A DNA stretch of 38,651 nt from Bifidobacterium breve (GTDB taxonomy: Bacteria; Actinomycetota; Actinomycetes; S36-B12), in contig CAMCYV010000001.1 in assembly GCA_945885645.1 (NCBI GenBank), forward strand, positions 1 through 38,651, given 5' to 3'. Below, piece after piece: positions 281 to 35,518 of the stretch (the first letter of the stretch is position 1; every line of letters begins with the position of its first letter). The position numbers and the translations under genes are program-made. Under the pieces are notes generated by a model. It was not told where the DNA came from. It saw only the letters and a list, made by a program, of their open reading frames with translations, and did no database searches.

Positions 281-292
281 TAGGACGTCAAA
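281..292. promoter_or_regulatory. Operator-like site TAGGACGTCAAA (variant of TAGGA-NN-TCC)
   Basis: Intergenic, about 50 nt upstream of the partial Rieske gene start. Shares TAGGAC.TC.AA.TAAA with the sites at 13128 and 28099. Confidence 0.3.
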
Positions 293-310
293 TAAAGATG
301 CTTGCCCAAC

Positions 311-349
311 AAGGAAAGGGCCCGACCAAATTGGCCGGACCCTTTCCTT
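311..349 (-). terminator. Strong hairpin just downstream of the binding-protein gene; likely intrinsic (I-shaped) terminator
   Basis: AAGGAAAGGGCCCGACCA-AAT-TGGCCGGACCCTTTCCTT forms an 18-nt inverted repeat (two positions become G-U wobbles in the minus-strand RNA). It lies 20 nt after the stop at 369. There is no clean U-tract. Confidence 0.55.
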
Positions 350-368
350 TACAGCGAGTGCTTGAGAC

Positions 369-1472
369 TTACTTTACGCCCCAAAGCTTCTTGAACTGAT
401 TTACATAGTCCTTGACGCCCAAGTAGTCACCCTCTGCAGTGAGGACCAACGACTTAGCATTTTGCTTGGTCAGGATCTGTGTTGGCAATTCGTTTGTGAC
501 GTATGGCATACCGATCGAGTTACGGGCCATGCTGTCCACGACACTCCAACCAACGATGGGGAGTGAGTAGCCGGTCCATGCTGATTCGGTGCCGTCCTTG
601 AGTCCCTGGATATTTGCCTTACCAGCGGTCAAGCCACCGATTGCAATTGTAGGGTTTTTCAGAGCGGCAGAGACACCCGTGACCCAGCCACCGAGGTCGG
701 AGACGAGCCAGTTGGTACCTGGGTTTGCTGCAACAATGTTGACTGCTGCTTGAGGAACCTTACCCGCGAAGATGTCGGTCAACTGCTGATCATTTTCTTC
801 GTATGTGCACTTGGTTGGGCACAGCTTCTTCAGGTTCTTGGCGTAAGAAACGTCGAAGCGACGAAGGATTGGGTACAAAGGAACCGTGATTCCCTGAGCC
901 TTAACGTTGCCCTTTGTTGCTGCAACCGAGTAGGCAGCGATCATCTGGCCCCAAAGGTCAATTGTCTTTGGACCGGCAATGTGGGTGTCCTTGAGTGCTG
1001 ATGTTGGCTTGCTCATGCATGCAGAGCAGATAACGACAACACCCTGCTTCTCAGCCTTGGTCAGAAGATCTGACAGGGTTGATGGCTCAATACCGGAGAT
1101 GTGAATGTAGTTTGGCTTGAGTGACAGCGCCTGGCTGAAGAGTGAGCGCTGGGTTTCAGGGCTAACTGCGCCAACGAGTTCTTTGTACTTCCAGCCGAGT
1201 GTCTTGGCCGCAGCATCGATTGCTTCATCGAGCACCTTGTTTTCATCGCCACCGTTTGAGAGGGCCACGACAAACTGACCCTTTGGTGGAACAGACTTCA
1301 AAGGTGTGGTGATCCCAATGCTTGTTGGGGTCTTGTTGTACTTGTCCACAATCGCCGCGGCAAGGGTTACACCCTTATCCTGCGAATTTGCAGCAAAGGC
1401 TGCGGGTGCGATACCCGAAACCAAGAGGGAAGCGGCTCCTATAAAGGCTACCGCCGTGGTTAACTTACGCAT
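369..1472 (-). CDS. ABC transporter substrate-binding protein, sugar/ribose-type periplasmic binding fold, secreted
   Basis: Long ORF with an N-terminal signal peptide (MRKLTTAVAFIGAASLLVSGIAPAAFA|A). Paralogous to the next ORF, with the same C-terminal ...LWGVK end. I prefer the ATG at 1470-1472 (GGAAGAGAG 5 nt upstream) over the GTG at 1478. Confidence 0.75.
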   Translation of the reverse strand: MRKLTTAVAFIGAASLLVSGIAPAAFAANSQDKGVTLAAAIVDKYNKTPTSIGITTPLKSVPPKGQFVVALSNGGDENKVLDEAIDAAAKTLGWKYKELVGAVSPETQRSLFSQALSLKPNYIHISGIEPSTLSDLLTKAEKQGVVVICSACMSKPTSALKDTHIAGPKTIDLWGQMIAAYSVAATKGNVKAQGITVPLYPILRRFDVSYAKNLKKLCPTKCTYEENDQQLTDIFAGKVPQAAVNIVAANPGTNWLVSDLGGWVTGVSAALKNPTIAIGGLTAGKANIQGLKDGTESAWTGYSLPIVGWSVVDSMARNSIGMPYVTNELPTQILTKQNAKSLVLTAEGDYLGVKDYVNQFKKLWGVK

Positions 1473-1517
1473 TGACACTCTCTTCCATTAGTGGGACTTG
1501 AACGACGTTCGTCGCGT

Positions 1518-1523
1518 AGACTA
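1518..1523 (-). promoter_or_regulatory. Candidate -10 element TAGTCT (context GTGGGTAGTCT)
   Basis: Fits the actinobacterial TANNNT pattern, about 46 nt upstream of ATG 1472. Related 9-mers occur upstream of three other minus-strand genes. Confidence 0.3.
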
Positions 1524-1549
1524 CCCACAAAATTCACTTCTGGGTAGTC
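1519..1549. repeat. Perfect 9-bp inverted repeat GACTACCCA-N13-TGGGTAGTC
   Basis: Read directly in the 206-bp spacer between the binding-protein paralogs. It overlaps the candidate -10 at 1518-1523. Confidence 0.6.
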
Positions 1550-1573
1550 AGTTATTCATTTTGTTATAAATAT

Positions 1574-1585
1574 ACGGATATCCTA
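1574..1585. promoter_or_regulatory. Operator-like palindrome ACGGATATCCTA (minus-strand TAGGATATCCGT)
   Basis: Intergenic between the two binding-protein genes. Core is GGA-TA-TCC. Confidence 0.3.
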
Positions 1586-1684
1586 CTAAAAAACGGACAA
1601 TTCGACCAAGAAAAGGCCGTAAAAACCCAGTTTGGCTCCCGCAACCTATTTCCTCGTTACTGGTGCTAGTTACTCGTCCAGGAG

Positions 1685-2884
1685 TTACTTCACACCCCAC
1701 AAGGCGGTGAAGAGCTCGCGGTAGTTGGCAATACCCAGATAATTGCCGTTCTCATCGAGTACAGCATCAGCGACGTTGGTGACATTGAGGAGTTGACTCG
1801 GGAGGAGTCCATCAGCTGGTGCGTCACCCGCGAGCACTCGCGCGAACTGGTCAATAACCCGCCACGCCATCACTGGTACGGGCAGAGCCGTCCACGCCTG
1901 CAAGGCAGCAGCTGCTTCTGGGGTTGCTTCCGTTGATCCACTTTCCGGTGGGACCGCACCCGATGCAGCGAGGTCGACCAAGGATGTGATGTCTCTAGCA
2001 TTAGCACCACGGCCGATGAGAACCGTTGGTTCCAACACGAGTGCATCGGCCAAAGCCGCGGGGACATCGGTGGAAAGCTCCCCTGAGTCAAGGAGTGCCC
2101 AGCGGCCCAGGCTCGTGCTCATTGTGTCCGCGATAAACGTGGGCACCATGCTGAGATCGGTCGTATCAACCTCAGATTCAATCGCGGAACAATCGCGGCA
2201 CAAGCTAGCCAGAGTGTTAACGAATTCGGCATTGAAAGTTACCAGAGCTGGCACGGGAAGTGTGAAAACCTCTATGCCGGCAACTTCTTCTGCCGCCTGA
2301 TTGGCGATCACGTAACTCGCAAGTATTTGACCCCACAGGGCATTTTGTGCGTCGCCATCAATGCTTGTGTTCTTGATGGCACCCGTTGGCTCGCCCGAGC
2401 ATCCGGTACAAATCACGGCTACACCCGCAGCCTCAGCGTCCGCCAGTTGGGTGGCTAGAAAGTCAACGTACCGACCGGAAATCCGGATACCCGCCGGGTT
2501 GAGTGCGAGGGCTTCTTCGAATGCTGCGGGCGCCGATTCCACTGTTTCCGCTCCGGGAACCTCGGTGAACTCCCAACCGATTGCCGCGGCCGCCTCGGCC
2601 ATGGAGGTATTGAGCAAGGTATCAAATTCAGAACCGTCGGAGAGACTGACAATCAGTGAGCCAGCAGCCGGTGGTGCCGTAAGTGGGACATCCACGCCAA
2701 TGCTGGTGGGTGCGAGAAGTGCCGAAGCGAGGAGTTCAGGATCAACCGCGGTATCCGCGGCGGTTTCTTCACCGGCCACGGCCGCACCCTCGACAAAATT
2801 GGGGTCATCAGCTGGCATGGCGCAGGATGCTAAAGCCAAAGTGGCGGAAAGGGCAACGACAACCGAAAGCATTGACCGACGCAT
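1685..2884 (-). CDS. ABC transporter substrate-binding lipoprotein, paralog of 369-1472
   Basis: Lipobox LALASC after a basic N-terminus (MRRSMLSVVVALSATLALASC). The domain layout and C-terminus (...LFTALWGVK) match the neighbour. ATG at 2882-2884 is preceded by GAAAGAGAG. The ORF-track extension to 2941 has no RBS. Confidence 0.75.
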   Translation of the reverse strand: MRRSMLSVVVALSATLALASCAMPADDPNFVEGAAVAGEETAADTAVDPELLASALLAPTSIGVDVPLTAPPAAGSLIVSLSDGSEFDTLLNTSMAEAAAAIGWEFTEVPGAETVESAPAAFEEALALNPAGIRISGRYVDFLATQLADAEAAGVAVICTGCSGEPTGAIKNTSIDGDAQNALWGQILASYVIANQAAEEVAGIEVFTLPVPALVTFNAEFVNTLASLCRDCSAIESEVDTTDLSMVPTFIADTMSTSLGRWALLDSGELSTDVPAALADALVLEPTVLIGRGANARDITSLVDLAASGAVPPESGSTEATPEAAAALQAWTALPVPVMAWRVIDQFARVLAGDAPADGLLPSQLLNVTNVADAVLDENGNYLGIANYRELFTALWGVK

Positions 2885-3059
2885 GTGACTCTCTTTCAAA
2901 GATGTTAACGACTGAAAGCCCAAAACTACATGCACGTCCAATAAATTGTCTCAGCGACTCGGTTTCAACTTGATCACATTAAGCACGGCATGCGGGCTGT
3001 GGATCACTTGCTATTGTTGTGGCTCATCCATGAATATCCCGTCCCACCCCTGGAGTTCA

Positions 3060-4172
3060 ATGTCCTTCGAAAGTGCAACGTCCTTCGAACTACCCCTAGC
3101 GGCTCTCGACCCTGAAGAGATTGCCGATTTGCGAGCCACCGTGCGCTCGGCTGCAACAGAGTCGGGTTACCCAACCGCAGTGCTTGAACTCGAAAAATCA
3201 GAGACTGGTCTGGACCTCTCACTGTGGTCACTGCTCGCACAAGACATCGGGCTTTCTGCGGTCGGACTACCTGAGTCTGCGGGGGGTTTGGGCGGCCTTG
3301 CCGAAATTTTGGCGGTGGCTGAAGAACTGGGTGCCACTTTGGCGCCCGTTCCCTTTATTACGAGCACGGTTCTGTGTGGCCAAGTTTTGGCTGCATGTGA
3401 TGAAAGTGCAGCTCCCTTTCTTGAGCGAATTGCCGGAGGTGAAATTGCTGCTCCTGCTGTAACGAATGCGCGCGGCCTGTGGTCTGCCAGCGATATTTCA
3501 TGTACGAGTGATGGTGAGAAAGTTTCGGGTACGGTTCGATTCGCACCATTTGGTGCTAGTGCAACTTTTTTTGTCGTCGCCGCCCACACAGATTCGGGCA
3601 TTGATGTGTTTGTTGTTGAAGCTTCAGATGCACACATCAATGGGCTGCCATCAATGGATTTCTCGCGTCCATCGGCCACCGTAACTTTCGACAGCTCCCC
3701 GGCAGTGCGACTGACCACGGGTGGAAATGGCGAGAGTGTGATCACGCAGGCTGTTGACGTAGCACTGATGGCTGTTGCCGCTGATCAACTTGGCGGATCG
3801 CAGGCCTGTTTTGATATGACACTCGACTACATAAAGGTGCGTCGTCAATTCAATCGGGAAATTGGGAGCTTCCAAGCAATCAAACACCGAATGGCAGATG
3901 CCCTAATGCTCGTTGAAATGCTGCGTTCAGGCCTTGAAAAGGTGACATCAGGTGGCATGCAGGAACTTGCCGCCGATGCCGCAATGAATAAGTCCTGGGG
4001 ATCTGACTCTTACATTGCGATGACCGCCGAAGCAATTCAGTTGCACGGTGGTATCGGTTTCACGTGGGAACACACCGCGCACCTGTATTTCAGAAGGGCG
4101 CGCTACGACGCTGCGTTTTTAGGTGATGGTTCATTTCAGCGCGAGCGCCTCGCCACACTGCTTAATTGGTAA
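3060..4172 (+). CDS. Acyl-CoA dehydrogenase family protein
   Basis: C-terminal ACAD motifs are present (FQAIKHRMADA, QLHGGIGFTWEHTAHLYFRRA). ATG at 3060 has GGAG 5 nt upstream. The upstream part of the tracked ORF (2946-3059) is Cys/Trp-rich and looks non-coding. Confidence 0.8.
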   Translation: MSFESATSFELPLAALDPEEIADLRATVRSAATESGYPTAVLELEKSETGLDLSLWSLLAQDIGLSAVGLPESAGGLGGLAEILAVAEELGATLAPVPFITSTVLCGQVLAACDESAAPFLERIAGGEIAAPAVTNARGLWSASDISCTSDGEKVSGTVRFAPFGASATFFVVAAHTDSGIDVFVVEASDAHINGLPSMDFSRPSATVTFDSSPAVRLTTGGNGESVITQAVDVALMAVAADQLGGSQACFDMTLDYIKVRRQFNREIGSFQAIKHRMADALMLVEMLRSGLEKVTSGGMQELAADAAMNKSWGSDSYIAMTAEAIQLHGGIGFTWEHTAHLYFRRARYDAAFLGDGSFQRERLATLLNW

Positions 4173-4195
4173 GAGCCCAACTAGTAGGAGGCCGA

Positions 4196-5449
4196 TCAAG
4201 ATTTGGCGAGTTGCGAGAATGGTGCCTTGTCGGTTCGGTGCTCAGCAGGGAGTCCAAGTACTCGTTCGGCGACAATATTGCGCTGCACTTCGTCGGTGCC
4301 ACCTGCCAAGCGGTAACCGGGAGCGCCAAGAACATGCTCACCCCAGGCAAACTCTCCCCACTCACCGCTGTCAGCGACCAATGCGGATCCGAGCATGTTC
4401 GCAGCCGTGTTTCCTATGCGCACGAGATTGTCAGATGCCAGTAGCTTTCCCAGAGATCCAGCCGGACCGGGATCCCCACCGGTTGCCGTAGCTCGAGCAA
4501 CTTTGGTCACCATCGCCGCATGCAGCCGGGTGCGGATCGTGATGTCGGCTAGTTCCTGACGCGTCACCGGGTCCGAGCTCAACCCCAAATGCTGCGCGAG
4601 TGCAACAAGATCCGAAGCGGTACCGCCTTTTCGTCGATGCCCCGATCCCGATGATGTCCGTTCAAAGCCAAGGGTGGTCTGCGCGACCTTCCAGCCCGCG
4701 TCGACATCACCGATGCGCATAGAGTCTGGGATCCGCGTTGCGTCAAACCACACTTCGTTGAAAGAAGCCGGGCCACTCATTTGACGGATGGGTCGAATCT
4801 CAACGCCGGGGGCATCCATGGGCACTAAAAATGCGGTGATGCCGCCTTGTTTCACCGCATCAGGATTGGTGCGGGCCAGAATGAAACCGTATTCGGAGAA
4901 TTGTGCGTTGGAGCTCCAAATCTTTTGTCCGGTGATCAACCAGTCATCGCCATCGCGAACCGCTTTGGTTGACAGGCCCGCAAGATCGGATCCGGCGCCG
5001 GGTTCGCTAAAGAGTTGGCAGCACAGTAGCTCGGTGCTCAGGAATGCTTTTGCGAATTGCTCGCGTTGTTCGGGTGTACCGAAGATGCTCACGGCCGATC
5101 CGACAAGACCCGTGGTCACCGAGATGATTTCGGAAGAGGGAGGAACAGCGAATTTGCGTTCTTCTTGGGCGAAGGCAACGGAGTAAACACTGGGAAGACC
5201 CGCGCCACCAAACTCAGCGGGGAGTGAGATGGCACCGTATCCCGCTTCGAATCGTTGGCGTCGGTATTCCCTGACGCGTGTAAGGAATGCAACTTCTTCG
5301 TCGTGACTCAATGCCAGAAAAATTTGCAGGCGCGGATCACCCTCACCCCACACAAAAACTTCTTCTTGAGCTGGTTCAGCGACGGATGCAAGCCAAGCGC
5401 GCACTTCGCCGCGCCAGGTGTCTAAATGCTGCTGGTCTATTTCGCTCAC
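4196..5449 (-). CDS. Acyl-CoA dehydrogenase family protein
   Basis: 417-aa ORF with an ACAD middle and C-terminal signature (ITGQKIWSSNA, GGTDEVQRNIVAERVLGLP). GTG start has GAAGGAG upstream and overlaps the thiolase stop by 1 nt (TAGTG). Confidence 0.85.
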   Translation of the reverse strand: MSEIDQQHLDTWRGEVRAWLASVAEPAQEEVFVWGEGDPRLQIFLALSHDEEVAFLTRVREYRRQRFEAGYGAISLPAEFGGAGLPSVYSVAFAQEERKFAVPPSSEIISVTTGLVGSAVSIFGTPEQREQFAKAFLSTELLCCQLFSEPGAGSDLAGLSTKAVRDGDDWLITGQKIWSSNAQFSEYGFILARTNPDAVKQGGITAFLVPMDAPGVEIRPIRQMSGPASFNEVWFDATRIPDSMRIGDVDAGWKVAQTTLGFERTSSGSGHRRKGGTASDLVALAQHLGLSSDPVTRQELADITIRTRLHAAMVTKVARATATGGDPGPAGSLGKLLASDNLVRIGNTAANMLGSALVADSGEWGEFAWGEHVLGAPGYRLAGGTDEVQRNIVAERVLGLPAEHRTDKAPFSQLAKS

Positions 5450-6615
5450 TACTGTGCTCCTTCGCTGATCAGGACCGTACAGGCACTAATGCCCGGCGCT
5501 CCATAGACGTGGGTGAAACCAATTCGCGGGGCTCCCGGAACTTGTTTACCGTCAGCGCGACCCTGTAACTGTCTCACGATCTCGTGTACTTGTCGCAAGC
5601 CAGAAGCGCCCACCGGCTCTCCGTTGGCGAGTAAACCACCGTCGGTGTTGAGAGGGAGCCGACCATCAATTTCGAATTCACCGTTGCGGTAAGCGGCTTC
5701 CTGCTCCCCATGGGCAAGGAGGCCGGTCTCACCTAGGTGAATCACTTCGGCTCCGCTGTCAGTGTCCTGGAGCTGGGCTACCTGCACATCCGCTGGCGTC
5801 ATGCCAGCAAGGTCGAATGCTGCTTTCGCCGCGTCAATTGAAGGACTCGTACGGTCACCGGGTGAGAGCCAGGGTGAGAAAACTTCGAACGATCCTGGTC
5901 GGCGACCACGAAGCGCCACCGATGCCAGTCGAATCGGAGTTTCGCACAAGTCATAGGCCTTCGAGCCGCGAGCTAGGACAAGGGAAACCGCGCCAGCATC
6001 AGGGGCACAAAACATGAAACGCGTCAGGGGGTCATTGATCATGTCCGCATCCATTGCTTCATCAACGGAAACCGGCTTGCGCCGCCACGCGTACGGGTGT
6101 TCTTGCGCGTAATCAAATGCTTTTGCCGAGGCATAACCGAGGGTGCGCTGGCTTATTCCGTGTTCATGAAGGTAGCGCGCAATTTTCAGCGCAAAATATG
6201 AAGTAGTAACCATCATGCCTGTGGCGCCATACCAATCGCCCAGTCCATAGCGCGCCGGTGAAACATTGAAAGCTCCCCGAGCGTGATTGTCATAGCCGAC
6301 AACGCAAGCAACATTGAGATCTTCAGCAATTAACCCGTTACGCGCTGTCATGAGAGCCACAGCACCCGTCGCGCAACCATTCTTCACCGTTACGAATGGA
6401 AGCCCGGTGAGTCCCAATCGTGAGACTAGGTTGTCTGGCTTTGTCTCACCATTTGTGCCACCAACCGCGAACTCAATGTCAGACCAGACAAGGCCACAGT
6501 CGGCGAGCGCACCGCGAACCGCGGTCTCGGCAAGCTCGTTATCTTCGCCGTCAAATCTGCCGAACTCTGTTCGGGCTGCTCCGACTATAAAAATGTCGTT
6601 TGCATTCACACTCAT
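5449..6615 (-). CDS. SCP-x/Ltp-type thiolase-like protein (non-canonical catalytic residues)
   Basis: Thiolase fold motifs are present: VGAARTEFGRF, KNGCATGAVAL (Cys81), NTDGGLLANGEPVGASGL. The start overlaps the DUF35 stop (ATGA at 6612-6615). Confidence 0.8.
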   Translation of the reverse strand: MSVNANDIFIVGAARTEFGRFDGEDNELAETAVRGALADCGLVWSDIEFAVGGTNGETKPDNLVSRLGLTGLPFVTVKNGCATGAVALMTARNGLIAEDLNVACVVGYDNHARGAFNVSPARYGLGDWYGATGMMVTTSYFALKIARYLHEHGISQRTLGYASAKAFDYAQEHPYAWRRKPVSVDEAMDADMINDPLTRFMFCAPDAGAVSLVLARGSKAYDLCETPIRLASVALRGRRPGSFEVFSPWLSPGDRTSPSIDAAKAAFDLAGMTPADVQVAQLQDTDSGAEVIHLGETGLLAHGEQEAAYRNGEFEIDGRLPLNTDGGLLANGEPVGASGLRQVHEIVRQLQGRADGKQVPGAPRIGFTHVYGAPGISACTVLISEGAQ

Positions 6616-7019
6616 GTCACAGCCTCGAAACCAAACGTGAAGACGGGTGCACCTTCATGTGTCCAAGCTTTAGCGAGCACCAAACTGACCTGCTCCCCAA
6701 TTGTCCATTCAGTTTTCCCCACTAGCCAGCCTTCAACAATCACAGGGCCGAGGTCTACATAGCCGATGGAAAAAGGAGCAAATTCATCGGTGCGAAATGG
6801 TGGCTTCGGTGCGAAGTGTTGGGTTGTCCACGACCAGACGGTCCCCTCTGTGGGCAGGCTCACTTTCGTGACGTCAAGGCTCGAGCATGTTGGACAGGAA
6901 TCCATGGCCGGGAAAACGTGTGCACCACATGCTTCACACATGGATCCCGCCAAAACAACCGGATCCACAGAAGAAAACAACGTCGAGTCAACAACTTCGA
7001 TGCCCACAGGAATGTTCAT
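6612..7019 (-). CDS. DUF35 Zn-ribbon/OB-fold protein (thiolase/aldolase partner)
   Basis: Zn ribbon CEACGAHVFPAMDSCPTC is followed by OB-fold-like sequence (GTVWSWTT...FSIGYVDLGP.VIVEGWL). ATG at 7017-7019 has GAAGG upstream. The tracked extension to 7310 overlaps the upstream gene and looks spurious. Confidence 0.8.
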   Translation of the reverse strand: MNIPVGIEVVDSTLFSSVDPVVLAGSMCEACGAHVFPAMDSCPTCSSLDVTKVSLPTEGTVWSWTTQHFAPKPPFRTDEFAPFSIGYVDLGPVIVEGWLVGKTEWTIGEQVSLVLAKAWTHEGAPVFTFGFEAVT

Positions 7020-7035
7020 GTATTCGCCTTCGGGA

Positions 7036-8043
7036 TTAGGCCGAAAGGCGCACGAGCGCCTTGCCGAAGTTCGCACCGGACAGTAAACCCTCGAGGCCCG
7101 CTCCTGCGGCGCCAATACCTTCAACAATCGTCGCACGGTCGACCAACTGACCGCTTGCCAACCAACCACTGACTTTCGCTTCAAACTCCGGACGCAGATC
7201 CTCGTAGTCTCGGACAATAAATCCCGTGATGGTAAGTCGTCGGAGGACTGCTTCAATGAGGACCGCGATAGATGGCTGCTCCTGAGTTCCAAAGTTGGAC
7301 ACTGCACCACACATGCTGATACGCCCGCGAATCTTCATGTTATGCAAAGCCGATGCGAATTGCTCGCCACCTACATTGTCAAAAAATAGATCGATTCCTT
7401 CGGGTGCAAGCTTGGATAGCTCCGCCGCGAAATCTTCATCGCGGTAATTGATTACTTCGTCGAAACCGCACTCGGTTGTAAGCCACGAGCATTTATCTGC
7501 ACCACCAGCACTGCCGATAACCCGCCCTGCGCCAAGCAACCTTGCGAACTGTCCAACCATGCTGCCCACGGCTCCACCGGCGCCGGTCACGAGAACCGTC
7601 TCACCCGCAGCCAGATGACCCACGGGAAGAAGTCCTGCGTAGGCGGTAAATCCGGTCTGGCCCATTGAACTCAACCATGAGATCGTTGGCGCCAGCGAAA
7701 GGTCACAAAGTGTTGCGGTCGCGTCGTCAACGACCGCATACTCGCGCCAGCCGAGGCGGTGACGAACTGTGGAACCTACCGGGAGAAGCTCTGAAGCGGA
7801 CTCCTCCACTATTCCGATTGCAGAGCCATCAAGTGGACCGCCGATCTCAAAATTGGTGGTGTACTGCTTCTCGCCCGGGTCCATGCGGCCACGGGTTGAT
7901 GGATCCAAACTCATGTATTGATTGCGCACAAGCGCGGTGCCCGGTGTGAGCTCGGGCAGGTCAATGGTTCCTAACGTGAGGTCACTAGCCACAAACGTTC
8001 GAGCTGGACGAGTGGCAAGAATGACGGCGGTTGTTTGCTTCAC
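7036..8043 (-). CDS. NADP-dependent oxidoreductase, zinc-free MDR family (enone/alkenal reductase-like)
   Basis: Rossmann motif VLVTGAGGAVGSMVGQFARLLGA and overall MDR layout. GTG start overlaps the stop of the upstream small ORF (GTGA at 8040-8043). Confidence 0.8.
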   Translation of the reverse strand: MKQTTAVILATRPARTFVASDLTLGTIDLPELTPGTALVRNQYMSLDPSTRGRMDPGEKQYTTNFEIGGPLDGSAIGIVEESASELLPVGSTVRHRLGWREYAVVDDATATLCDLSLAPTISWLSSMGQTGFTAYAGLLPVGHLAAGETVLVTGAGGAVGSMVGQFARLLGAGRVIGSAGGADKCSWLTTECGFDEVINYRDEDFAAELSKLAPEGIDLFFDNVGGEQFASALHNMKIRGRISMCGAVSNFGTQEQPSIAVLIEAVLRRLTITGFIVRDYEDLRPEFEAKVSGWLASGQLVDRATIVEGIGAAGAGLEGLLSGANFGKALVRLSA

Positions 8044-8255
8044 GCGTTCGCCTCGCGAAGGGCGCGAGCCTCAGGGGTGCGGCCAACCCAACCGGTAGCT
8101 TGTAGGTCAACGGTGAGCATCTCACCCTCTTGCCAGACACCATTGTCATCAAAAATTCCAATACGGTCAGTAGCAGGGTCATGGACTTCAACTAAGCCAA
8201 CCTCGTTGACCGAGTAGACGTATCCAGAGATGGGATGCTTGTAGACCTTGGCCAT
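8040..8255 (-). CDS. Hypothetical small protein (71 aa)
   Basis: ATG at 8253-8255 has a perfect AAGGAG 6 nt upstream. It is the first gene of the string and is translationally coupled to the MDR reductase. I recognise no motif. Confidence 0.5.
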   Translation of the reverse strand: MAKVYKHPISGYVYSVNEVGLVEVHDPATDRIGIFDDNGVWQEGEMLTVDLQATGWVGRTPEARALREANA

Positions 8256-8315
8256 AACGACTCCTTGACACGACTTGATGAATCCTTGAACGCTTTCACT
8301 GCACGATAGGTCCAC

Positions 8316-8321
8316 AGACTA
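8316..8321 (-). promoter_or_regulatory. Candidate -10 element TAGTCT (context GTGTAGTCT)
   Basis: About 61 nt upstream of ATG 8255. The 9-mer is identical to the one at 13101-13109. Confidence 0.3.
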
Positions 8322-8379
8322 CACAAGTTGCACCGCGGTAGGGTGGTGGAGCCTCACACTTTCATGTTAGGAAAAACAC

Positions 8380-8928: not shown

Positions 8929-8949
8929 TTACACAACGCGAAAATCATT

Positions 8950-9594: not shown

Positions 9595-9600
9595 GAGGTT

Positions 9601-11001: not shown

Positions 11002-11004
11002 GAG

Positions 11005-11991: not shown

Positions 11992-12054
11992 TGAGAGTCC
12001 CTCCGGGATTTCATCGGGTCGGCATTGTGGGCTTGGGTGAAATGTAAGTACTTT

Positions 12055-13056: not shown

Positions 13057-13100
13057 CAAGGTCTCCGGTTCGATTGAATGAAGCTGTAAATGTCCAGCGC

Positions 13101-13106
13101 AGACTA
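13101..13106 (-). promoter_or_regulatory. Candidate -10 element TAGTCT (context GTGTAGTCT)
   Basis: About 45 nt upstream of the E1 alpha ATG at 13056. Confidence 0.3.
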
Positions 13107-13127
13107 CACTAATCGAAATCGCTGAAC

Positions 13128-13139
13128 TAGGACATCCAA
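13128..13139. promoter_or_regulatory. Operator-like site TAGGACATCCAA
   Basis: Lies in the divergent region between E1 alpha and the ThuA-like gene, 23 nt upstream of GTG 13162. Confidence 0.35.
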
Positions 13140-13161
13140 GTAAATTGCACCGGGAGGCAAA

Positions 13162-16629: not shown

Positions 16630-16702
16630 GGAGCCTCCTTAACGGTCGAACCAAGGTTACCGACAAATTTCGGAGATGCAAGGCTTTCCAAGTATTTTCC
16701 GA

Positions 16703-19899: not shown

Positions 19900-19950
19900 T
19901 TTTTGCTTCTCCGCACCACGGGGCCGCCGTTTGAGCGGCTGGCCGATTAA

Positions 19951-19962
19951 TAGGAAGTCCTA
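19951..19962. promoter_or_regulatory. Operator-like palindrome TAGGAAGTCCTA (best palindrome of the set)
   Basis: Lies in the divergent region between the 204-aa ORF/PPDK-like string and the FadH-like gene. A second weaker copy, TACGAAGTCCTG, sits at 20045-20056. Confidence 0.35.
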
Positions 19963-20070
19963 CTATTGCATAACCTGCCCCCATTTATATAGGAATACGC
20001 AAACTCTGCAACTCCCGGGTCCCGCCACCTGTGTCATGCGCTGTTACGAAGTCCTGTGTCATAGTTTGCC

Positions 20071-23792: not shown

Positions 23793-23855
23793 GTGAACGT
23801 CCATTTCGTGTGAGGGTGAAAGGGTCAGAGTTAGCGAATGTTACCACCGCCAAAC

Positions 23856-23867
23856 TAGGACTACCTA
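23856..23867. promoter_or_regulatory. Operator-like site TAGGACTACCTA
   Basis: Lies in the 85-bp gap between the Rieske oxygenase stop (23878) and swivel-His paralog 1 (preferred start 23792). One mismatch to TAGGA-NN-TCCTA. Confidence 0.3.
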
Positions 23868-23877
23868 TGAAATCACA

Positions 23878-27614: not shown

Positions 27615-28064
27615 TCAGGATGCACCAGAGATGACCTCGCGGTCACCCTCTTTCCACAGCCGATCCAACCGGCGGTAATCGATCCGCCAACCTTCGGGGG
27701 TGCGAACAACTCGGTCGGCGTACTCGCCTCCCAAAGCGTAGTGCTTCACCGGGCCGGGTGTTGATTCCCTGATGTGCTGGGAAATGAGATACGTCTTCAC
27801 TTCGGCCTGGTCACCGTCGAGCTCAATGAGACTTTTACCAATCAGGTGCTGGGTTGAGTCCAATCCGGTCAGGGTGCCTTCAATCATTGCTCGGATCTGC
27901 GGGGCACCGGTTGGGCAGCCAAGGCTTCCCCCGTCAAAAATGGCATCGGGGGTAAACAGGGTCTCGAGCGTGTCAAAGTCCTTGGAGTCAATTGCCCGCG
28001 CATAACGAACAAGCAGTTCCTCAATCTCAATTCGATCTACTATTTGCGCAAGGTTCATGGTCAT
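27615..28064 (-). CDS. NTF2/SnoaL-like family protein
   Basis: IEIEELLVRYARAIDSKDFDTLETLFTPDAIFD is typical of SnoaL_4-type NTF2 folds. The start is ambiguous (ATG 28064 or 28058, or GTG 28091). Confidence 0.6.
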   Translation of the reverse strand: MTMNLAQIVDRIEIEELLVRYARAIDSKDFDTLETLFTPDAIFDGGSLGCPTGAPQIRAMIEGTLTGLDSTQHLIGKSLIELDGDQAEVKTYLISQHIRESTPGPVKHYALGGEYADRVVRTPEGWRIDYRRLDRLWKEGDREVISGAS

Positions 28065-28098
28065 AATGAGGAAAATAGACCGTGGCTTCACTTAATGC

Positions 28099-28110
28099 AA
28101 GGACTTCCAA
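28099..28110. promoter_or_regulatory. Operator-like site AAGGACTTCCAA followed by TAAAGT
   Basis: Lies in the divergent region between the NTF2/swivel-His/Rieske string and the PPOX/SDR/esterase string. Confidence 0.3.
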
Positions 28111-28159
28111 TAAAGTCCGCTCAAGGCGATTAACAATTTCTGCGATCAAGGAGTATTCC

Positions 28160-32120: not shown

Positions 32121-32121
32121 T

Positions 32122-33096: not shown

Positions 33097-33851
33097 GAAC
33101 GTGCCTTTCGTGCGGAGCGGAAGAAGGATCCGTGCGCGGCTGTAAACCCACCGTCAACAAAAAGTGTTTGCCCGGTAATCCACGATGCCTGTTCGGAACA
33201 GAGAAAACTGACTGCATTAGCGATGTCCTGCGACTCGCCCATCCGACTAATGGGAAGCACTCCAGCAATTGATGCCTGCGCCTTTTCATCACCGTAATGG
33301 CCAGCGGTCCCTTCGGTGAGCACGGTTCCAGGTCCGACCGCATTACAGCGCACACCCCAAGGAGCAAACTCCAAGGCCATGGCTTCGGTGAGTTGGTTCA
33401 CCGCAGCCTTTGACGCCGGATACAGAGATGTACCGGTTGCGTGAGCCCTCGATGTAATTGACGAAAGATTGATGACCACTCCACCGCCATTCGTCGCCAT
33501 TATTGGGACGAGCGCCTGAGCCATGAGGACCGGTCCAATCACATTGACGTCAAGGATGGCGCGCATTTCCTCATGTGTTGTGTGTAAAAGATCTTGGTAA
33601 CGCTGGATTGCAGCGTTGTTGACAAGCACCCGGCAATTCGGGGCCAACGCCGCGACCGTCGCCACCGCTTCGCTGTCGCAGACGTCCACGATCGCAGTGC
33701 GAACACCGAGTGACTCACGCACATCAGTGAGTGGACCTTCTGCAACGTCTAATGCAAGGACGTCATAACCGTCGGTGACAAGTCGCTCAACAATCGCCCG
33801 ACCGATACCTTGACCCGCTCCAGTTACGACCGCGGTTCCCTTGTTACTCAT
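33093..33851 (-). CDS. SDR family oxidoreductase
   Basis: TGAGQGIGRAI, NNAA, YPASKAA and ITGQTLFVDGG. The start overlaps the upstream stop (ATGA). Confidence 0.9.
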   Translation of the reverse strand: MSNKGTAVVTGAGQGIGRAIVERLVTDGYDVLALDVAEGPLTDVRESLGVRTAIVDVCDSEAVATVAALAPNCRVLVNNAAIQRYQDLLHTTHEEMRAILDVNVIGPVLMAQALVPIMATNGGGVVINLSSITSRAHATGTSLYPASKAAVNQLTEAMALEFAPWGVRCNAVGPGTVLTEGTAGHYGDEKAQASIAGVLPISRMGESQDIANAVSFLCSEQASWITGQTLFVDGGFTAAHGSFFRSARKARS

Positions 33852-34684
33852 CCACTCTCCTCATCGGTTTCACCGTGCACCGCCCACGCTACACATCGTC
33901 GTAAGATCTCGCGGTATTGCACAGATTCCCATGCGACCCGGTCCACTGTTCCGGTGTCAGCAATCCCAAGGTCAGTAACGTCAAATCGCCCGCGGCAGTG
34001 GCCGAGGGTGAAATACACAACTTCGCCCTTTCCTTCCGCGCGAGTAAACAACACCGGGTGTCGCGTGCGTGAGCCGGAGTGCGAAACCTCGAAGCCGGGG
34101 CATTCCCCCGTGAACTCAGTGTCAAGGATGACTTCGAGATCCTCGCGCACATCCAACACGTACAACTCGTCGGTGGTCACAAAGGATGAAACTCCTGCTA
34201 CAAGCGGGTGCTCGGGTTGTACAACATCAACGCGCCAAGGTGAAATTTTTGGGTGCGCAAGGAATCGATTGCCAAGCAATGCACTGAACTCGGGCATCGC
34301 GTCGGGGGTGCGAAACACTTTTGGTCCGCCTGCAACAGGTGGGTCAAGCGCCGAGTTTGTTGCGTGTAGTGCGAGGAAGCGCATTCCACCGCGGACCGCT
34401 TGCGTCAGGGCTAGCGATTCTTCCTGTGTAGGCCGGACATCACATGTGTACGCAACAACTGCATCTGCTTGTCCAAGTACGTCAATATCGGAGTAGTCGG
34501 AATGCACCGAGCATCGAATTGAATCGTATTCGCCAAGCAATGTAAGTAATTCGAGCCGGGCATAGTCAACGTCGTGCCATCGCCCACCGACAACGAGCGC
34601 AACCTTGACTGGCAGTACTGAATTGACTTGGGGGGTGGCGCAGTGCATCACATGTGGCATGCGATTGACCACCCCCTTCGTCAC
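33848..34684 (-). CDS. ThuA-like domain protein (second copy)
   Basis: VKVALVVGGRWHD... and the overall length and shape resemble the ThuA/GATase1-like fold and the ORF at 13162-14010. The start codon is uncertain (GTG 34684, ATG 34660). Confidence 0.5.
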   Translation of the reverse strand: MTKGVVNRMPHVMHCATPQVNSVLPVKVALVVGGRWHDVDYARLELLTLLGEYDSIRCSVHSDYSDIDVLGQADAVVAYTCDVRPTQEESLALTQAVRGGMRFLALHATNSALDPPVAGGPKVFRTPDAMPEFSALLGNRFLAHPKISPWRVDVVQPEHPLVAGVSSFVTTDELYVLDVREDLEVILDTEFTGECPGFEVSHSGSRTRHPVLFTRAEGKGEVVYFTLGHCRGRFDVTDLGIADTGTVDRVAWESVQYREILRRCVAWAVHGETDEESG

Positions 34685-34697
34685 CGACGAATTGTTA

Positions 34698-35462
34698 TTA
34701 GAACTGGGTTCGAACGGTCATGCCGCCGTCGCACACAACGTTGGTGCCCACGCAGTAACCCATGACCGGACTTGCCAAACCGACGATAACCGCGGCGATC
34801 TCGCTGGGCTTGCCCATATGTCCCAATGGAATTGATGCAAGAACTTTTTCGTATACCTCGGGACGACCGGACTTGATTTTGCTCCAGTCGCCCTCTTCGA
34901 AATAGACGGGTCCGGGTGAAACAGTGTTCACGCGGATCCCCTTGGGAGCGAGGGCGTGCGCGGCGGCGGAAGCATGCCGAACAATTGCCGCTTTGAAAGC
35001 ACCGTAGGAATTGGGGGAACTGGGCCATACGTTGTCAAAGCCAAAAGTTGAGGACAGCGCGATGATCGAACCGCCGCCAGCAGCTTCAAGGATGGGTGTG
35101 GCTTCGTCGATCAGGTGGACCAACGGAAGAAGGTCAAGTTCGAGGCTCTGCTGCCACTGCTCAGGACCTTTAATTGAGCCACCGGTGACATTGGACACCA
35201 AGATGTCAAGCCCACCGAGGTTCTCGGCCGCATCACGGATGAATCCTTTGAGTTGGTCTTCCTTGCTCACGTCAATTGCGCGAGCGAACACCGTAACTCC
35301 AGCGCCGCGTAATTCGGCGGCAAAAGCCTCAACGGCTTCTTCGTTGCGGGCGCAAAATGCTACGGATGCACCCTCGGCGGCTAGAAGTTCAACAGTAGCG
35401 CGACCAATACCGCGGGTACCACCGGTTACAAGAGCACGTTTTCCAGTAAGACCAAGATCCAT
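34698..35462 (-). CDS. SDR family oxidoreductase
   Basis: TGGTRGIGRAT, YGAFKAA and a PG motif. First gene of a six-gene minus-strand string. Confidence 0.9.
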   Translation of the reverse strand: MDLGLTGKRALVTGGTRGIGRATVELLAAEGASVAFCARNEEAVEAFAAELRGAGVTVFARAIDVSKEDQLKGFIRDAAENLGGLDILVSNVTGGSIKGPEQWQQSLELDLLPLVHLIDEATPILEAAGGGSIIALSSTFGFDNVWPSSPNSYGAFKAAIVRHASAAAHALAPKGIRVNTVSPGPVYFEEGDWSKIKSGRPEVYEKVLASIPLGHMGKPSEIAAVIVGLASPVMGYCVGTNVVCDGGMTVRTQF

Positions 35463-35506
35463 GATGTTCCATTCTTTGGGGTGTTAGACACTTTTCGTGC
35501 CGAAGC

Positions 35507-35518
35507 TAGGATGTCCAT
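35507..35518. promoter_or_regulatory. Operator-like site TAGGATGTCCAT
   Basis: Lies in the divergent region between the six-gene SDR/ThuA/LLM string and the ferredoxin string. Confidence 0.35.

What the first reader, a model, noticed from the sequence alone, without database searches (positions are those of the whole stretch)
281..35518. A palindromic TAGGA-NN-TCC motif recurs in most intergenic regions of the window: signature of one regulon with no regulator gene in view
Seen directly: TAGGAAGTCCTA (19951-19962), TAGGACATCCAA (13128-13139), TAGGATGTCCAT (35507-35518), minus-strand TAGGATATCCGT (1574-1585), TAGGACTACCTA (23856-23867), AAGGACTTCCAA (28099-28110) and TAGGACGTCAAA (281-292). 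Weaker copies: TACGAAGTCCTG (20045-20056), AAGGCTTTCCAA (16680-16691) and ATGCACGTCCAA (2930-2941). Several extend to a longer shared string: GGAC-N-TCCAA-N-TAAA at 13130, 28101 and 2933, with variants at 283 (GGACGTCAAATAAA) and 16682 (GGCTTTCCAAGTAT). All lie in the roughly 2 kb of non-coding DNA in the window, mostly in the divergent promoter regions that feed the operons. An 8-specified-base pattern such as TAGGANNTCC is expected well under once by chance in that much sequence, yet four exact copies occur. Inference: a dimeric transcription factor (TetR/IclR/GntR-like; family unknown) co-regulates the dehydrogenase complex, the ThuA genes, the PPDK-like/ABC string, the FadH-like gene, the swivel-His/Rieske string, the SDR/LLM string and the ferredoxin string. 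That would tie these heterogeneous genes into one pathway. I recognised no transcription-factor gene in the window, although the 204-aa (19285-19899) and 71-aa (8040-8255) ORFs are of unknown function.
Basis: partly seen in the sequence, partly recalled or inferred. Interest (0 to 1): 0.6.

Follow-up and report, generated by a model that had tools for sequence, protein, structure and literature searches.

The report
Conserved operator of a catabolic cluster
A 20-22 bp palindromic DNA signal sits on the promoters of most operons in a 40-75 kb nutrient-breakdown gene cluster of uncultured freshwater actinobacteria and is conserved across five genera, so it is most likely the docking site of one cluster-specific regulator protein; this is an ordinary kind of control, but a previously undescribed instance.

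Summary
TAGGANNTCC occurs at 4 sites in 1.85 kb of window intergenic DNA, against 3 in the other 151 kb of intergenic DNA in this genome.

It is a 22-bp dyad, consensus AATACTAGGAC|GTCCTAGTATT, with only GG/CC near-invariant.

The whole cluster is syntenic in 5 genera of freshwater 'Ca. Nanopelagicales'-type Actinomycetota. The dyad is kept at orthologous promoters while the flanks diverge:
- 16675 in all 17 genomes examined;
- 19946, 13123 and 28094 in 2-3 genera each.

A matrix trained only on the other genera ranks five window sites 1-5 of 1.6 million genome positions. In three complete relatives every top hit lies inside the cluster.

The site always overlaps a core promoter, but at varying distance from the -10 box. 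That favours a dimeric repressor.

Not members:
- 281 is the -35 of a TTGACG-17-CATAAT promoter.
- 20045 is unrelated.

Weaker or lineage-specific: 35507, 1574, 23856 and 2930.

A regulator gene does exist, just off the window's left edge: a HutC-type GntR, the only transcription-factor gene found in the cluster and co-inherited with it. The motif does not fit the usual HutC consensus, so this assignment is unproven.

Overall this is a new member of a known kind.

The parts
19946..19967 (.). Site A: strongest copy (ATTAATAGGAAGTCCTACTATT). It lies upstream of the 204-aa gene/PPDK-like operon and is divergent to the FadH-like gene. On the minus strand it contains TGC-AATAGT, an extended -10-like box.
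   Evidence: Rank 1 of 1.6 M genome positions, 25.4 bits, with a matrix trained on other genera. Conserved in genera g1, g6 and g13.
16675..16696 (.). Site B (GATGCAAGGCTTTCCAAGTATT), between the PPDK-like gene and the ABC ATPase gene. On the minus strand its TTGCAT arm serves as a -35.
   Evidence: Rank 2, 20.0 bits. Present in all 17 genomes examined, across five genera. A TAnnnT box follows exactly 15 nt after the 22-mer in 13 of 16 genomes.
16654..16659 (-). Inferred -10 box TAACCT of the ABC ATPase promoter, 15 nt downstream of site B.
   Evidence: Position is conserved as TAnnnT across genera although the spacer sequence varies. No transcription start site data.
28094..28115 (.). Site C (AATGCAAGGACTTCCAATAAAG), in the divergent region between the SnoaL/swivel-His/Rieske operon and the PNPOx/SDR/hydrolase operon.
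   Evidence: Rank 4, 18.4 bits. Conserved in g1, g6 and g15.
28062..28077 (-). Inferred -10 box TATTTT (28077-28072), then 7 nt, then the ATG at 28064. This geometry fits a leaderless SnoaL transcript.
   Evidence: The box lies 16 nt after the 22-mer in 7 of 7 genomes. The same +7 nt ATG spacing is seen in G000, G016, G163 and G147.
13123..13144 (.). Site D (TGAACTAGGACATCCAAGTAAA), between the E1alpha-E1beta-E2 operon and the ThuA gene.
   Evidence: Rank 5, 16.8 bits. Conserved in g1 and 8 g6 genomes, where it directly abuts the palindromic -10 ACTATAGT. Degenerate in g15, g13 and g9.
35502..35523 (.). Site I (GAAGCTAGGATGTCCATGTTAT), between the SDR/ThuA/LLM operon and the ferredoxin operon. 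It overlaps the -10 TAGGAT of a plus-strand promoter-like site TAGACA-16-TAGGAT (35485-35512).
   Evidence: Rank 3, 18.7 bits in G000. The same-genus genome G016 reads TAAGAT, and G026 and G035 lack the site. Promoter scan. Lineage-specific at best.
1569..1590 (.). Site G (AATATACGGATATCCTACTAAA), upstream of the first solute-binding-protein gene.
   Evidence: Rank 7, 14.3 bits, at the edge of the noise. The G016 ortholog scores better, at 18.6 bits. There is no cross-genus ortholog of this intergenic region.
2925..2946 (.). Site F: an atypical copy (ACTACATGCACGTCCAATAAAT) that lacks the left GG. It lies between the second solute-binding-protein gene and an acyl-CoA dehydrogenase gene.
   Evidence: Only 9.7 bits, rank 47. 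However, TACATGCACGTCCWA is kept in G016, G035 and G026.
23851..23872 (.). Site E: a weak copy (CAAACTAGGACTACCTATGAAA), between the Rieske gene and the 575-aa swivel-His gene.
   Evidence: 11.2 bits, rank 25. An equivalent site occurs in G147 (14.8 bits), but none in most other genomes.
263..291 (-). Sigma70-type promoter TTGACG-17-CATAAT for the Rieske gene at 3-230.
   Evidence: Best promoter-like match in 1-20000, 10 of 12. Matrix score 3.0 bits, rank 872. G026 keeps TTGACG at the same place.
20045..20056 (.). Rejected.
   Evidence: -7.6 bits, rank 21,805. The stretch is absent or altered in the same-genus genomes G016 and G003.

Best explanation
The recurring sequence is the operator of one dedicated, dimeric transcription factor. 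That factor controls most operons of a conserved 40-75 kb catabolic gene cluster in freshwater Nanopelagicales-type Actinomycetota.

The unit is a 20-22 bp imperfect palindrome, AATACTAGGAC|GTCCTAGTATT, with half-site TRCWWGGA. Only GG/CC are near-invariant.

High-confidence copies in the window are at 19946, 16675, 28094 and 13123. Probable lineage-specific copies are at 35502 and 1569. Doubtful copies are at 2925 and 23851.

Each copy overlaps a core promoter:
- at 16675 and 28094 the TTGCAT arm of the site is itself the -35 hexamer;
- in genus g6 the 13123 ortholog abuts the -10 box;
- at 19946 the site covers an extended -10 and the expected start point.

Because the position relative to the -10 varies between 0, 15 and 16 nt, I infer a repressor that occludes RNA polymerase and is released by a pathway metabolite.

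The most likely protein (about 50%) is the HutC-type GntR regulator. Its gene lies roughly 1.5 kb beyond the window's left end (G000 contig C105, 704->3). It is the only transcription-factor gene found in the cluster.

Shown: the sites, their symmetry, their conservation, their restriction to the cluster, and their positions relative to conserved TAnnnT boxes.

Inferred: protein binding, repression, transcription start points and the identity of the regulator.
For: 1. Local enrichment. There are 4 exact sites in 1,846 bp of window intergenic DNA against 3 in the other 151 kb of intergenic DNA. None of 200 intergenic shuffles reached the observed count.

2. Synteny. The whole cluster is syntenic in G016, G026, G035 and G033. 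It is present in 41 of 173 genomes of the family, in 5 of 16 genera.

3. Footprints. Cross-genus pairwise identity is 0.68-0.80 inside the 22-mer and 0.30-0.44 in the 20-nt flanks, for all four site classes.

4. Location of hits in relatives. In the cluster regions (8-60 kb each) of 17 relatives, every matrix hit of at least 13.5 bits is intergenic. Nearly all fall at the same orthologous promoters.

5. Independent matrix. A matrix built from 29 sites of four other genera ranks window sites 1-5 of 1,597,470 positions in G000. The best hit outside the window is a 14.5-bit match in coding DNA.

6. Complete genomes. In G026, G171 and G172, all hits with E <= 2 of a sequence-only model lie inside the cluster.

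7. Dyad symmetry. Sites show 5.8 of 11 complementary pairs against 2.7 for random 22-mers. The majority consensus is a perfect 22-bp palindrome.

8. Promoter geometry. TAnnnT follows the site at +15 nt in 13 of 16 genomes (site B), at +16 in 7 of 7 (site C) and at 0 in 8 of 8 g6 genomes (site D). TAnnnT is this genome's -10 box and peaks 10-19 nt before start codons.

9. Regulator candidate.
- It has GntR and UTRA domains.
- Its phyletic pattern matches the cluster's: 40 of 173 genomes, the same 5 genera, and the same 5 genomes of the window's own genus.
- It sits a constant 21-22 kb from the 204-aa gene.
- The equivalents of NagR Arg48 and Gly69 are kept. In NagR, two Arg residues read a GG in each half-site (PMC4333415).
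Against: - No binding or expression data exist.
- The motif does not match the HutC consensus GTMTAKAC (PMC4494728). Its GG and CC are 4 bp apart, not 6 as in dre sites.
- The NagR Arg38 position is Ser in this protein.
- The regulator's own upstream region has no copy of the motif in any of 30 genomes.
- G163 carries a stop codon in the GntR gene and G162 has a divergent copy, yet their sites are intact. These may be long-read assembly errors.
- At sites B and C the centre lies near -39. That also fits a class II activator.
- Parts of the motif double as promoter elements: TTGCAT as a -35, and TAGGAT or AATAGT as a -10. Some of the conservation is therefore owed to RNA polymerase rather than to a regulator.
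- The complete-genome scan scored only 150 of 420-550 first-look candidates per genome.
Confidence: 0.65

Rival explanations
1. It is a transcription-factor site of the same kind, but the factor is an activator. It would bind centred near -39/-40, overlapping the -35 region in the class II manner, and recruit RNA polymerase to the cluster promoters when the substrate is present.
For: At site B (16 genomes) and site C (7 genomes) the 22-mer ends 15-16 nt before the -10 box. That puts its centre at about -38.5 to -40.5 with very strict spacing. The genome as a whole shows no -35 consensus.
Against: At site D in g6 the dyad abuts the -10, with its centre near -23, and it overlies the predicted ThuA start. 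At site A it covers the extended -10 and the start region. Activators need a fixed phase. HutC-type regulators characterised so far are mostly repressors (PMC4333415, PMC4494728). The TTGCAT arm already gives TTG of a -35.
Confidence: 0.15
2. No dedicated regulator is involved. The similarity reflects shared core-promoter architecture (-35 TTGCAT, -10 TAnnnT, extended -10) and the general excess of TAG-containing words in intergenic DNA of a genome with many leaderless genes.
For: - TAGGCT, TAGACT and TAGGAT are the most enriched upstream hexamers.
- 281 is a TTGACG-17-CATAAT promoter, and 35507's TAGGAT is the -10 of TAGACA-16-TAGGAT.
- G016 keeps TAnnnT at 35507 but loses the GG.
- TTGCAT in sites B and C sits 16-17 nt from a -10.
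Against: - General promoter elements would recur genome-wide, but strong matches exist only in this cluster.
- The arm distal to the -35 is equally conserved at site B, where no divergent gene exists.
- The sites show dyad symmetry.
- The spacing to the -10 differs between sites (0, 15, 16 nt). That rules out a single sigma-factor promoter.
Confidence: 0.1
3. The 204-aa protein encoded at 19285-19899 is the regulator. It would be a new winged-helix family that is autoregulated through site A, the strongest copy.
For: - Site A is the best site and lies in front of this gene.
- The high-confidence model (pLDDT 94) has an N-terminal helix / beta-hairpin 'wing' domain. That domain gives weak local matches to MarR- and PadR-type proteins.
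- The protein matches no known family.
Against: - The protein is acidic: pI 4.5 overall and 4.4 for the N-domain.
- Only one short helix lies between strand 1 and the wing, so there is no helix-turn-helix pair.
- No fold match reaches E <= 0.001.
- The gene overlaps the PPDK-like gene start.
- It is co-conserved with the PPDK-like gene in genera g9 and g15, and in Actinomadura, Goekera and Nonomuraea, where site A is absent.
Confidence: 0.05
4. The element acts in RNA, as a hairpin or leader signal, or the recurrence is chance.
For: DNA palindromes can fold in RNA. Site A lies in or near the 5' leader, next to a variable GC hairpin.
Against: - Rfam finds nothing in the window.
- The W positions of the two arms are not complementary. 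At site B, CTTGG faces CCTTG, so pairing is not preserved.
- Sites B and C lie upstream of the -10 of their genes.
- Chance is excluded by conservation across five genera.
Confidence: 0.03

Closest known systems
dre-type operators of GntR/HutC repressors (NagR/YvoA of Bacillus subtilis, DasR of Streptomyces)
   Same: - The operator is a 16-20 bp imperfect palindrome read by a homodimer.
- A GG (CC) dinucleotide in each half-site is the most conserved feature. In NagR it is contacted by Arg38 and Arg48 (PMC4333415).
- Natural sites are not perfectly symmetric.
- The regulon is a local catabolic one.
- A HutC-type gene (GntR + UTRA) lies inside the cluster.
- The equivalents of NagR Arg48 and Gly69 are present.
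   Different: - GG and CC are 4 bp apart here, against 6 in dre.
- The HutC core GTMTAKAC (PMC4494728) is absent.
- The Arg38 position is Ser, with Arg one residue later.
- There is no site in front of the regulator gene.
- Binding is untested.
KstR (TetR-family) regulon of actinobacterial steroid-catabolic clusters (comparison from my own knowledge, not tested here)
   Same: One palindromic operator is repeated in many, often divergent, intergenic regions of a large catabolic cluster. That cluster is rich in acyl-CoA dehydrogenases, thiolase/ChsH-like proteins, Rieske oxygenases and SDRs. Repression is lifted by a pathway intermediate.
   Different: The motif is different and there is no TetR gene in the cluster. 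The substrate here is unknown. The regulon here is smaller (4-8 sites) and confined to one locus.
Actinobacterial housekeeping promoters (-10 TAnnnT, weak or absent -35, many leaderless mRNAs)
   Same: Several listed copies are, or overlap, such elements. 281 is a -35. 35507's TAGGAT is a -10. AATAGT in site A is an extended -10. TTGCAT in sites B and C is a -35.
   Different: The dyad extends beyond any promoter element, is symmetric, is confined to one cluster and sits at varying distance from the -10.

Membership tests
Transcription-factor operator shared by a local regulon | The motif recurs in non-coding DNA more often than chance or the genomic background allow. | tested here: met
   4 sites in 1.85 kb against 3 in the other 151 kb of intergenic DNA; ranks 1-5 genome-wide.
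Transcription-factor operator shared by a local regulon | The motif is conserved at orthologous positions while the surrounding intergenic DNA diverges (phylogenetic footprint). | tested here: met
   Identity is 0.68-0.80 in the site and 0.30-0.44 in the flanks. Up to 5 genera and 17 genomes were compared.
Transcription-factor operator shared by a local regulon | The site shows the dyad symmetry expected for a dimeric helix-turn-helix protein. | tested here: met
   5.8 of 11 symmetric pairs against 2.7 for the null; the consensus is a perfect palindrome.
Transcription-factor operator shared by a local regulon | The site overlaps or adjoins the core promoters of the target operons. | tested here: met
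   relate the sites to conserved TAnnnT boxes. Transcription start sites are inferred, not measured.
Transcription-factor operator shared by a local regulon | A protein binds the site specifically, and this affects transcription. | not testable with these tools
GntR/HutC-family operator | A HutC-type regulator gene (GntR wHTH + UTRA) is linked to the regulated genes. | tested here: met
   The gene is on G000 contig C105, at a constant 21-22 kb from the 204-aa gene in relatives, with the same phyletic pattern as the cluster.
GntR/HutC-family operator | The site is a palindrome matching NyGTMTAKACNy, with GT and AC 4 nt apart (PMC4494728). | tested here: not met
   The consensus AATACTAGGACGTCCTAGTATT has a central ACGT and GG-N4-CC. 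There is no GTMTAKAC. The paper lists exceptions to the consensus.
GntR/HutC-family operator | The protein keeps the DNA-contacting residues that read GG in each half-site (NagR Arg38, Arg48, Gly69; PMC4333415). | tested here: inconclusive
   alignment: Arg43 corresponds to Arg48 and Gly64 to Gly69, so both are kept. The Arg38 position is Ser33, with Arg34 adjacent.
GntR/HutC-family operator | An autoregulatory site lies upstream of the regulator gene (common but not obligatory). | tested here: not met
   the best score in the gntR upstream region is below noise in 30 loci.
Promoter of an alternative sigma factor | The conserved upstream element lies at a fixed spacing from the -10 element. 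| tested here: not met
   the offset to TAnnnT is 15 nt at site B, 16 nt at site C and 0 nt at site D in g6. At site A there is none downstream.
Structured RNA element / riboswitch | The element matches a known RNA family or preserves base pairing. | tested here: not met
   no Rfam hit; the arms are degenerate at W positions without complementarity.
Dispersed repeat (REP/MITE-like) | Many copies are scattered over the genome, often with flanking repeats. | tested here: not met
   strong copies occur only in this cluster, at orthologous promoter positions.

The most novel reading that the evidence does not exclude
The operator is read by an atypical HutC-type GntR whose half-sites are 2 bp closer together than in all well-studied family members. 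Its effector is a phosphorylated intermediate made by the cluster's own PPDK-like and swivel-histidine phosphotransfer enzymes. In that case the regulon would delimit a new, phosphorylation-dependent route for degrading an unknown (possibly polycyclic) substrate in abundant freshwater actinobacteria.

A less likely variant is that the unclassified 204-aa winged-helix-like protein is the binder, which would make it a new family of regulators.
Probability: 0.15. Interest if true: 0.6.

Novelty: new member of a known kind. Interest (0 to 1): 0.38.

Why it matters
The cluster packs unusual enzymes: a PPDK-like protein, two ATP-grasp-less swivel-histidine proteins, Rieske oxygenases, ThuA-like proteins, histidine phosphatases, and an E1/E2 complex without E3. 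It occurs in uncultured freshwater actinobacteria that cannot yet be studied genetically.

A shared, conserved operator is the best available evidence that these operons form one functional unit. It shows which operons belong (E1/E2, ThuA, ABC importer, PPDK-like, SnoaL/swivel-His/Rieske, PNPOx/SDR/hydrolase) and which may not (the 8256 divergon has no site).

It also offers a practical handle. The 22-mer and the linked GntR can be tested in vitro, and effector screening of that regulator could reveal the substrate.

As regulation, it is conventional.

Tried and rejected
- Bare core GGANNTCC: not enriched, so the core alone is not the signal.
- Sigma54 reading of TGGAAG-N3-TTGCAT: the GG-GC spacing is 2 nt too short and differs at site A. 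Rejected by inspection.
- A fixed 51-52 nt distance to start codons as a translation-linked feature: the distance from site A to the ATG varies from 41 to 79 nt across genomes. The constancy elsewhere comes from promoter geometry.
- The 204-aa and 71-aa ORFs as regulators: they give no Pfam, NCBIfam or PDB sequence hits. The model of the 204-aa protein gives no significant fold match and the protein is acidic.
- A second palindrome, TGTAGTC-N-GACTACA, in the gntR divergon as the GntR operator. It occurs only there, only in some g6 genomes, and not in the window's genus. Single GTAGTCT-type words look like TAnnnT -10 boxes. Left open.
- More distant actinomycetes (Actinomadura, Goekera, Nonomuraea and others): they have the 204-aa gene but no copy of the motif.
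- My first script for shuffles timed out and was rerun.

Full report
**1. The observation**

All ten 12-mers are at the coordinates given.

TAGGANNTCC gives five strand hits, which is four sites: 1576 minus, 13128, the palindromic 19951, and 35507. Whole-window shuffles expect 0.43.

I set gene starts by coding potential and ribosome-binding sites. On that basis all four sites are intergenic. 13128 only appears 'coding' if the E1alpha ORF is extended to an implausible TTG.

To allow for the post-hoc choice of pattern, I counted every 5-N2-3 word in the 1.8 kb of window intergenic DNA. TAGGAnnTCC is the top word, and no dinucleotide shuffle out of 200 reached its count.

Genome-wide the word is not enriched: 15 sites in 1.6 Mb. 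Its distribution is extreme, though:
- 4 sites in 1,846 bp of window intergenic DNA;
- 3 in the other 151 kb of intergenic DNA;
- 8 in 1.45 Mb of coding DNA.

At the rest-of-genome intergenic rate, the Poisson probability of four or more is 7e-8.

Two cautions apply:
- The bare core GGANNTCC is not enriched.
- TAG-containing hexamers are the most over-represented upstream words in this genome. Its -10 box is TAnnnT (TAGGCT 40 against 3.8 expected). These boxes peak 10-19 nt before start codons, the signature of many leaderless mRNAs.

**2. The setting**

The window is a whole contig of a 1.6 Mb, 79%-complete MAG. Close relatives are labelled 'Candidatus Nanopelagicales' or Actinomycetota from lakes.

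Pfam shows a dense catabolic cluster:
- solute-binding proteins;
- acyl-CoA dehydrogenases;
- a thiolase with a ChsH2-like OB protein;
- an E1alpha/E1beta/E2 set;
- two ThuA-like proteins;
- an ABC permease and ATPase;
- a PPDK-like protein;
- two proteins carrying only the PEP-utilizer mobile domain;
- Rieske oxygenases;
- histidine phosphatases;
- SnoaL-like proteins, SDRs and luciferase-like monooxygenases;
- a ferredoxin.

No transcription-factor domain was found in the window.

**3. Comparative evidence**

The 204-aa gene has orthologs in 41 of 173 genomes of the family, in 5 of 16 genera.

tblastn of all window proteins shows that the whole ~38 kb is syntenic in four genomes:
- G016, the same genus;
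- G026, a complete genome with the cluster inverted;
- G035;
- G033, in part.

The central 18 kb is also syntenic in 13 further genomes. This allowed footprinting of every intergenic region.

Four sites are conserved across genera while their flanks are not:

| Site | Window position | Location | Conservation |
|---|---|---|---|
| B | 16675 | between the PPDK-like and ABC ATPase genes | all 17 genomes |
| A | 19946 | upstream of the 204-aa gene | g1, g6, g13 |
| D | 13123 | E1alpha / ThuA divergon | g1 and eight g6 genomes |
| C | 28094 | SnoaL / PNPOx divergon | g1, g6, g15 |

Cross-genus pairwise identity is 0.68-0.80 inside the 22-mer and 0.30-0.44 in the adjoining 20 nt.

A position matrix was first trained on eight sites of G026, G035 and G033. 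Scanned over all fetched cluster regions, it gave only intergenic hits at 13.5 bits or more, and nearly all fall at the same orthologous positions.

I then retrained it on 29 distinct sites from the four other genera, with nothing from the window's own genus. This matrix ranks the window sites as follows among 1,597,470 positions of the window's genome:

| Window position | Rank |
|---|---|
| 19946 | 1 |
| 16675 | 2 |
| 35502 | 3 |
| 28094 | 4 |
| 13123 | 5 |
| 1569 | 7 |
| 23851 | 25 |
| 2925 | 47 |
| 281 | 872 |
| 20045 | 21,805 |

The best hit outside the window is a 14.5-bit match in coding DNA.

A sequence-only covariance model of the sites was searched in three complete relatives of 3.5-3.7 Mb. 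It returned hits only inside the cluster at E <= 2. One caveat: only 150 of 420-550 first-look candidates per genome were scored.

**4. Anatomy of the motif**

Thirty-four distinct sites give 23.7 bits of information. G8, G9, C14 and C15 (and T3 in the gene-sense orientation) are invariant or nearly so.

The majority consensus, AATACTAGGACGTCCTAGTATT, is a perfect 22-bp palindrome.

Individual sites have 5.8 of 11 complementary pairs on average, against 2.7 for random 22-mers.

The half-site is TRCWWGGA. The W positions of the two arms are often not complementary to each other. That argues for recognition by a protein dimer and against an RNA hairpin. Rfam finds nothing in the window.

**5. 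Geometry relative to promoters**

All positions below are read on the strand of the downstream gene.

- **Site B.** The site is followed by 15 nt of variable sequence and then TAnnnT, in 13 of 16 genomes at exactly that offset. The TTGCAT arm of the dyad therefore sits 16 nt from the -10 and serves as the -35.
- **Site C.** The offset is 16 nt in 7 of 7 genomes. In four genomes the -10 is followed by 7 nt and then the ATG, which indicates a leaderless SnoaL mRNA.
- **Site D in genus g6.** The dyad abuts the palindromic -10 ACTATAGT, which reads TATAGT on both strands.
  - For E1alpha the operator spans about -34 to -13.
  - For ThuA the predicted start falls inside the operator.
  - In the window's genus a 14-nt insertion separates the dyad from TAGTGT/TAGTCT.
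- **Site A.** The dyad itself contains TGC-(G/A)ATAGT, an extended -10, so it covers roughly -14 to +8.

The site is therefore always on a core promoter, but in different registers. That pattern is typical of a repressor. It also excludes a promoter for an alternative sigma factor.

Transcription start points are inferred from the conserved -10 boxes.

**6. Copies that are something else, or weak**

- **281.** On the minus strand it reads TTGACG-17-CATAAT, the best sigma70-like match in the first 20 kb. It scores 3 bits on the matrix. G026 keeps TTGACG at the same place.
- **20045.** It scores -7.6 bits and is missing from same-genus relatives.
- **35507.** It scores well in this genome (18.7 bits). 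Three things count against it:
  - Its TAGGAT is also the -10 of TAGACA-16-TAGGAT.
  - G016 has TAAGAT, which is still TAnnnT but lacks the GG.
  - Other genera have unrelated sequence there.
  It is at best a lineage-specific operator.
- **1569.** It is marginal here (14.3 bits) but better in G016 (18.6 bits).
- **2925.** It lacks one GG, yet TACATGCACGTCCWA is kept in three genera.
- **23851.** It is weak, with an equivalent only in G147.

**7. The regulator**

In G026 the Rieske gene whose first 76 codons end the window is followed by a convergent 246-aa gene. Orthologs lie at the same place in G016 and G035. In the window's own genome the ortholog is at the end of contig C105 (704->3, cut by the contig end).

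The protein has GntR and UTRA domains, so it belongs to the HutC subfamily.

Its distribution mirrors the cluster's: 40 of 173 genomes, the same five genera, and the same five genomes of the window's genus. Wherever both are on one contig it lies 21-22 kb from the 204-aa gene.

The cluster continues beyond the regulator gene with further genes of similar kinds:
- SnoaL;
- a tyrosine phosphatase;
- an aldehyde dehydrogenase;
- a histidine phosphatase;
- Rieske proteins.

One further motif copy precedes a Rieske gene in G026.

I found no other transcription-factor gene in about 75 kb of G026. This rests on N-terminal sequence inspection of the extra ORFs, not on domain searches of each one.

A regulon confined to one cluster argues for a regulator encoded in it.

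Points in favour of this protein:
- In the NagR-DNA structure two arginines read a GG in each half-site and Gly69 anchors the wing (PMC4333415).
- This protein keeps the equivalents of Arg48 and Gly69.

Points against:
- The Arg38 position is Ser, with Arg one residue later.
- The motif lacks the HutC core GTMTAKAC (PMC4494728).
- Its GG and CC are 4 bp apart rather than 6.
- The regulator's own upstream region has no copy in 30 genomes.
- Two long-read MAGs with apparently damaged GntR genes keep their sites.

I put the assignment at about 50%.

The 204-aa protein is a poor candidate:
- it matches no family;
- its confident model has a wing-like N-domain without a helix-turn-helix pair, plus a helical bundle, and has no significant PDB neighbour;
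- its pI is 4.5;
- it is co-conserved with the PPDK-like gene in lineages that lack site A.

**8. Verdict**

Those regions serve six to eight operons. The motif is redefined and the site list pruned.

It works like a classical local repressor-operator system. Membership in the HutC operator class is not established, because a defining sequence feature is not met.

No such regulon turned up in my literature searches, but these were brief. The novelty is that of a new motif and regulon in an uncultured lineage, not a new mechanism.

Noticed in passing
window 19982-20008 (read on the minus strand) and loci L100-L118: A block GTTTCTT(G/T)A(G/C)...CTCTATAAAT lies upstream of the 204-aa gene. Its core, TTTCTTGAC, is kept even in Actinophytocola, Goekera, Blastococcus, Trujillonella and Nonomuraea, where the dyad is absent. 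Its distance to the next TA-rich box (8-10 nt) does not fit a -35/-10 pair. It may be a second, older regulatory site of the PPDK-like operon.
   Followed up: partly
G000 contig C105 (3-704 minus; genes to 5351): C105 carries the HutC-type GntR gene cut at the contig end. It also carries SnoaL, tyrosine-phosphatase, aldehyde dehydrogenase, histidine-phosphatase and Rieske-type genes. By synteny with G016, G026 and G035 it should join the left end of the window across the missing ~1.2 kb of the Rieske gene.
   Followed up: partly
whole genome; examples at window 28062-28077 and 16654-16659: The upstream hexamers most enriched genome-wide are TAGGCT, TAGACT, TAGAGT and TAAACT. They peak 10-19 nt before start codons and there is no -35 consensus. 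This indicates an actinobacterial TAnnnT -10 and many leaderless genes.
   Followed up: partly
window 13101-13111; G026, G162, G163 and others, E1alpha/ThuA divergon: In genus g6 the two divergent genes share a palindromic -10 (ACTATAGT reads TATAGT on both strands) directly beside the operator. The window's genus has a 14-nt insertion there and uses TAGTGT/TAGTCT.
   Followed up: partly
loci L126, L129, L130, L132, L134, L136 (gntR-SnoaL intergenic region of g6 genomes): A palindrome TGTAGTC-N-GACTACA, whose centre GTCAGAC fits the general GntR GT..AC rule, lies between the regulator gene and the divergent SnoaL gene. It is seen only in some g6 genomes, not in the window's genus and not elsewhere in the cluster. 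It relates to the GTGTAGTCT words noted by another reader.
   Followed up: partly
window 19285-19899: The 204-aa protein gives a very confident model (pLDDT 94): a small wing-like N-domain plus a five-helix bundle. Conserved motifs include NDHSD..YD and SYHTVWMHLHQE, each with several invariant residues. It has no significant structural neighbour in the PDB.
   Followed up: partly
window 19905-19945 and orthologs: Between site A and the ribosome-binding site of the 204-aa gene, every genome has a GC-rich hairpin of different sequence but similar size. This could be a leader structure.
   Followed up: no
window 35517-35624: An ATG lies 4 nt after the TAGGAT box and opens a 35-codon ORF (MLSDQRDNINSLYSHRV...). 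Its stop overlaps the ferredoxin start (ATGA). It could be a leaderless upstream ORF or nothing.
   Followed up: no
G163:C3:259453-259923 and G162:C5:951844-952413: The GntR ortholog carries an in-frame TGA in G163 and is truncated or divergent in G162, while the operator copies in both genomes are intact. These may be assembly errors in long-read MAGs or recent loss.
   Followed up: no
window 8256-8379: This divergent region has no copy of the dyad. It serves the 71-aa/ADH/ChsH2-like/thiolase/ACAD string and the glyoxalase-fold gene. It shares ACACAAGTTG-like words with the gntR upstream region of the window's genus (GTACTGCAAACAACTTGTC).
   Followed up: no
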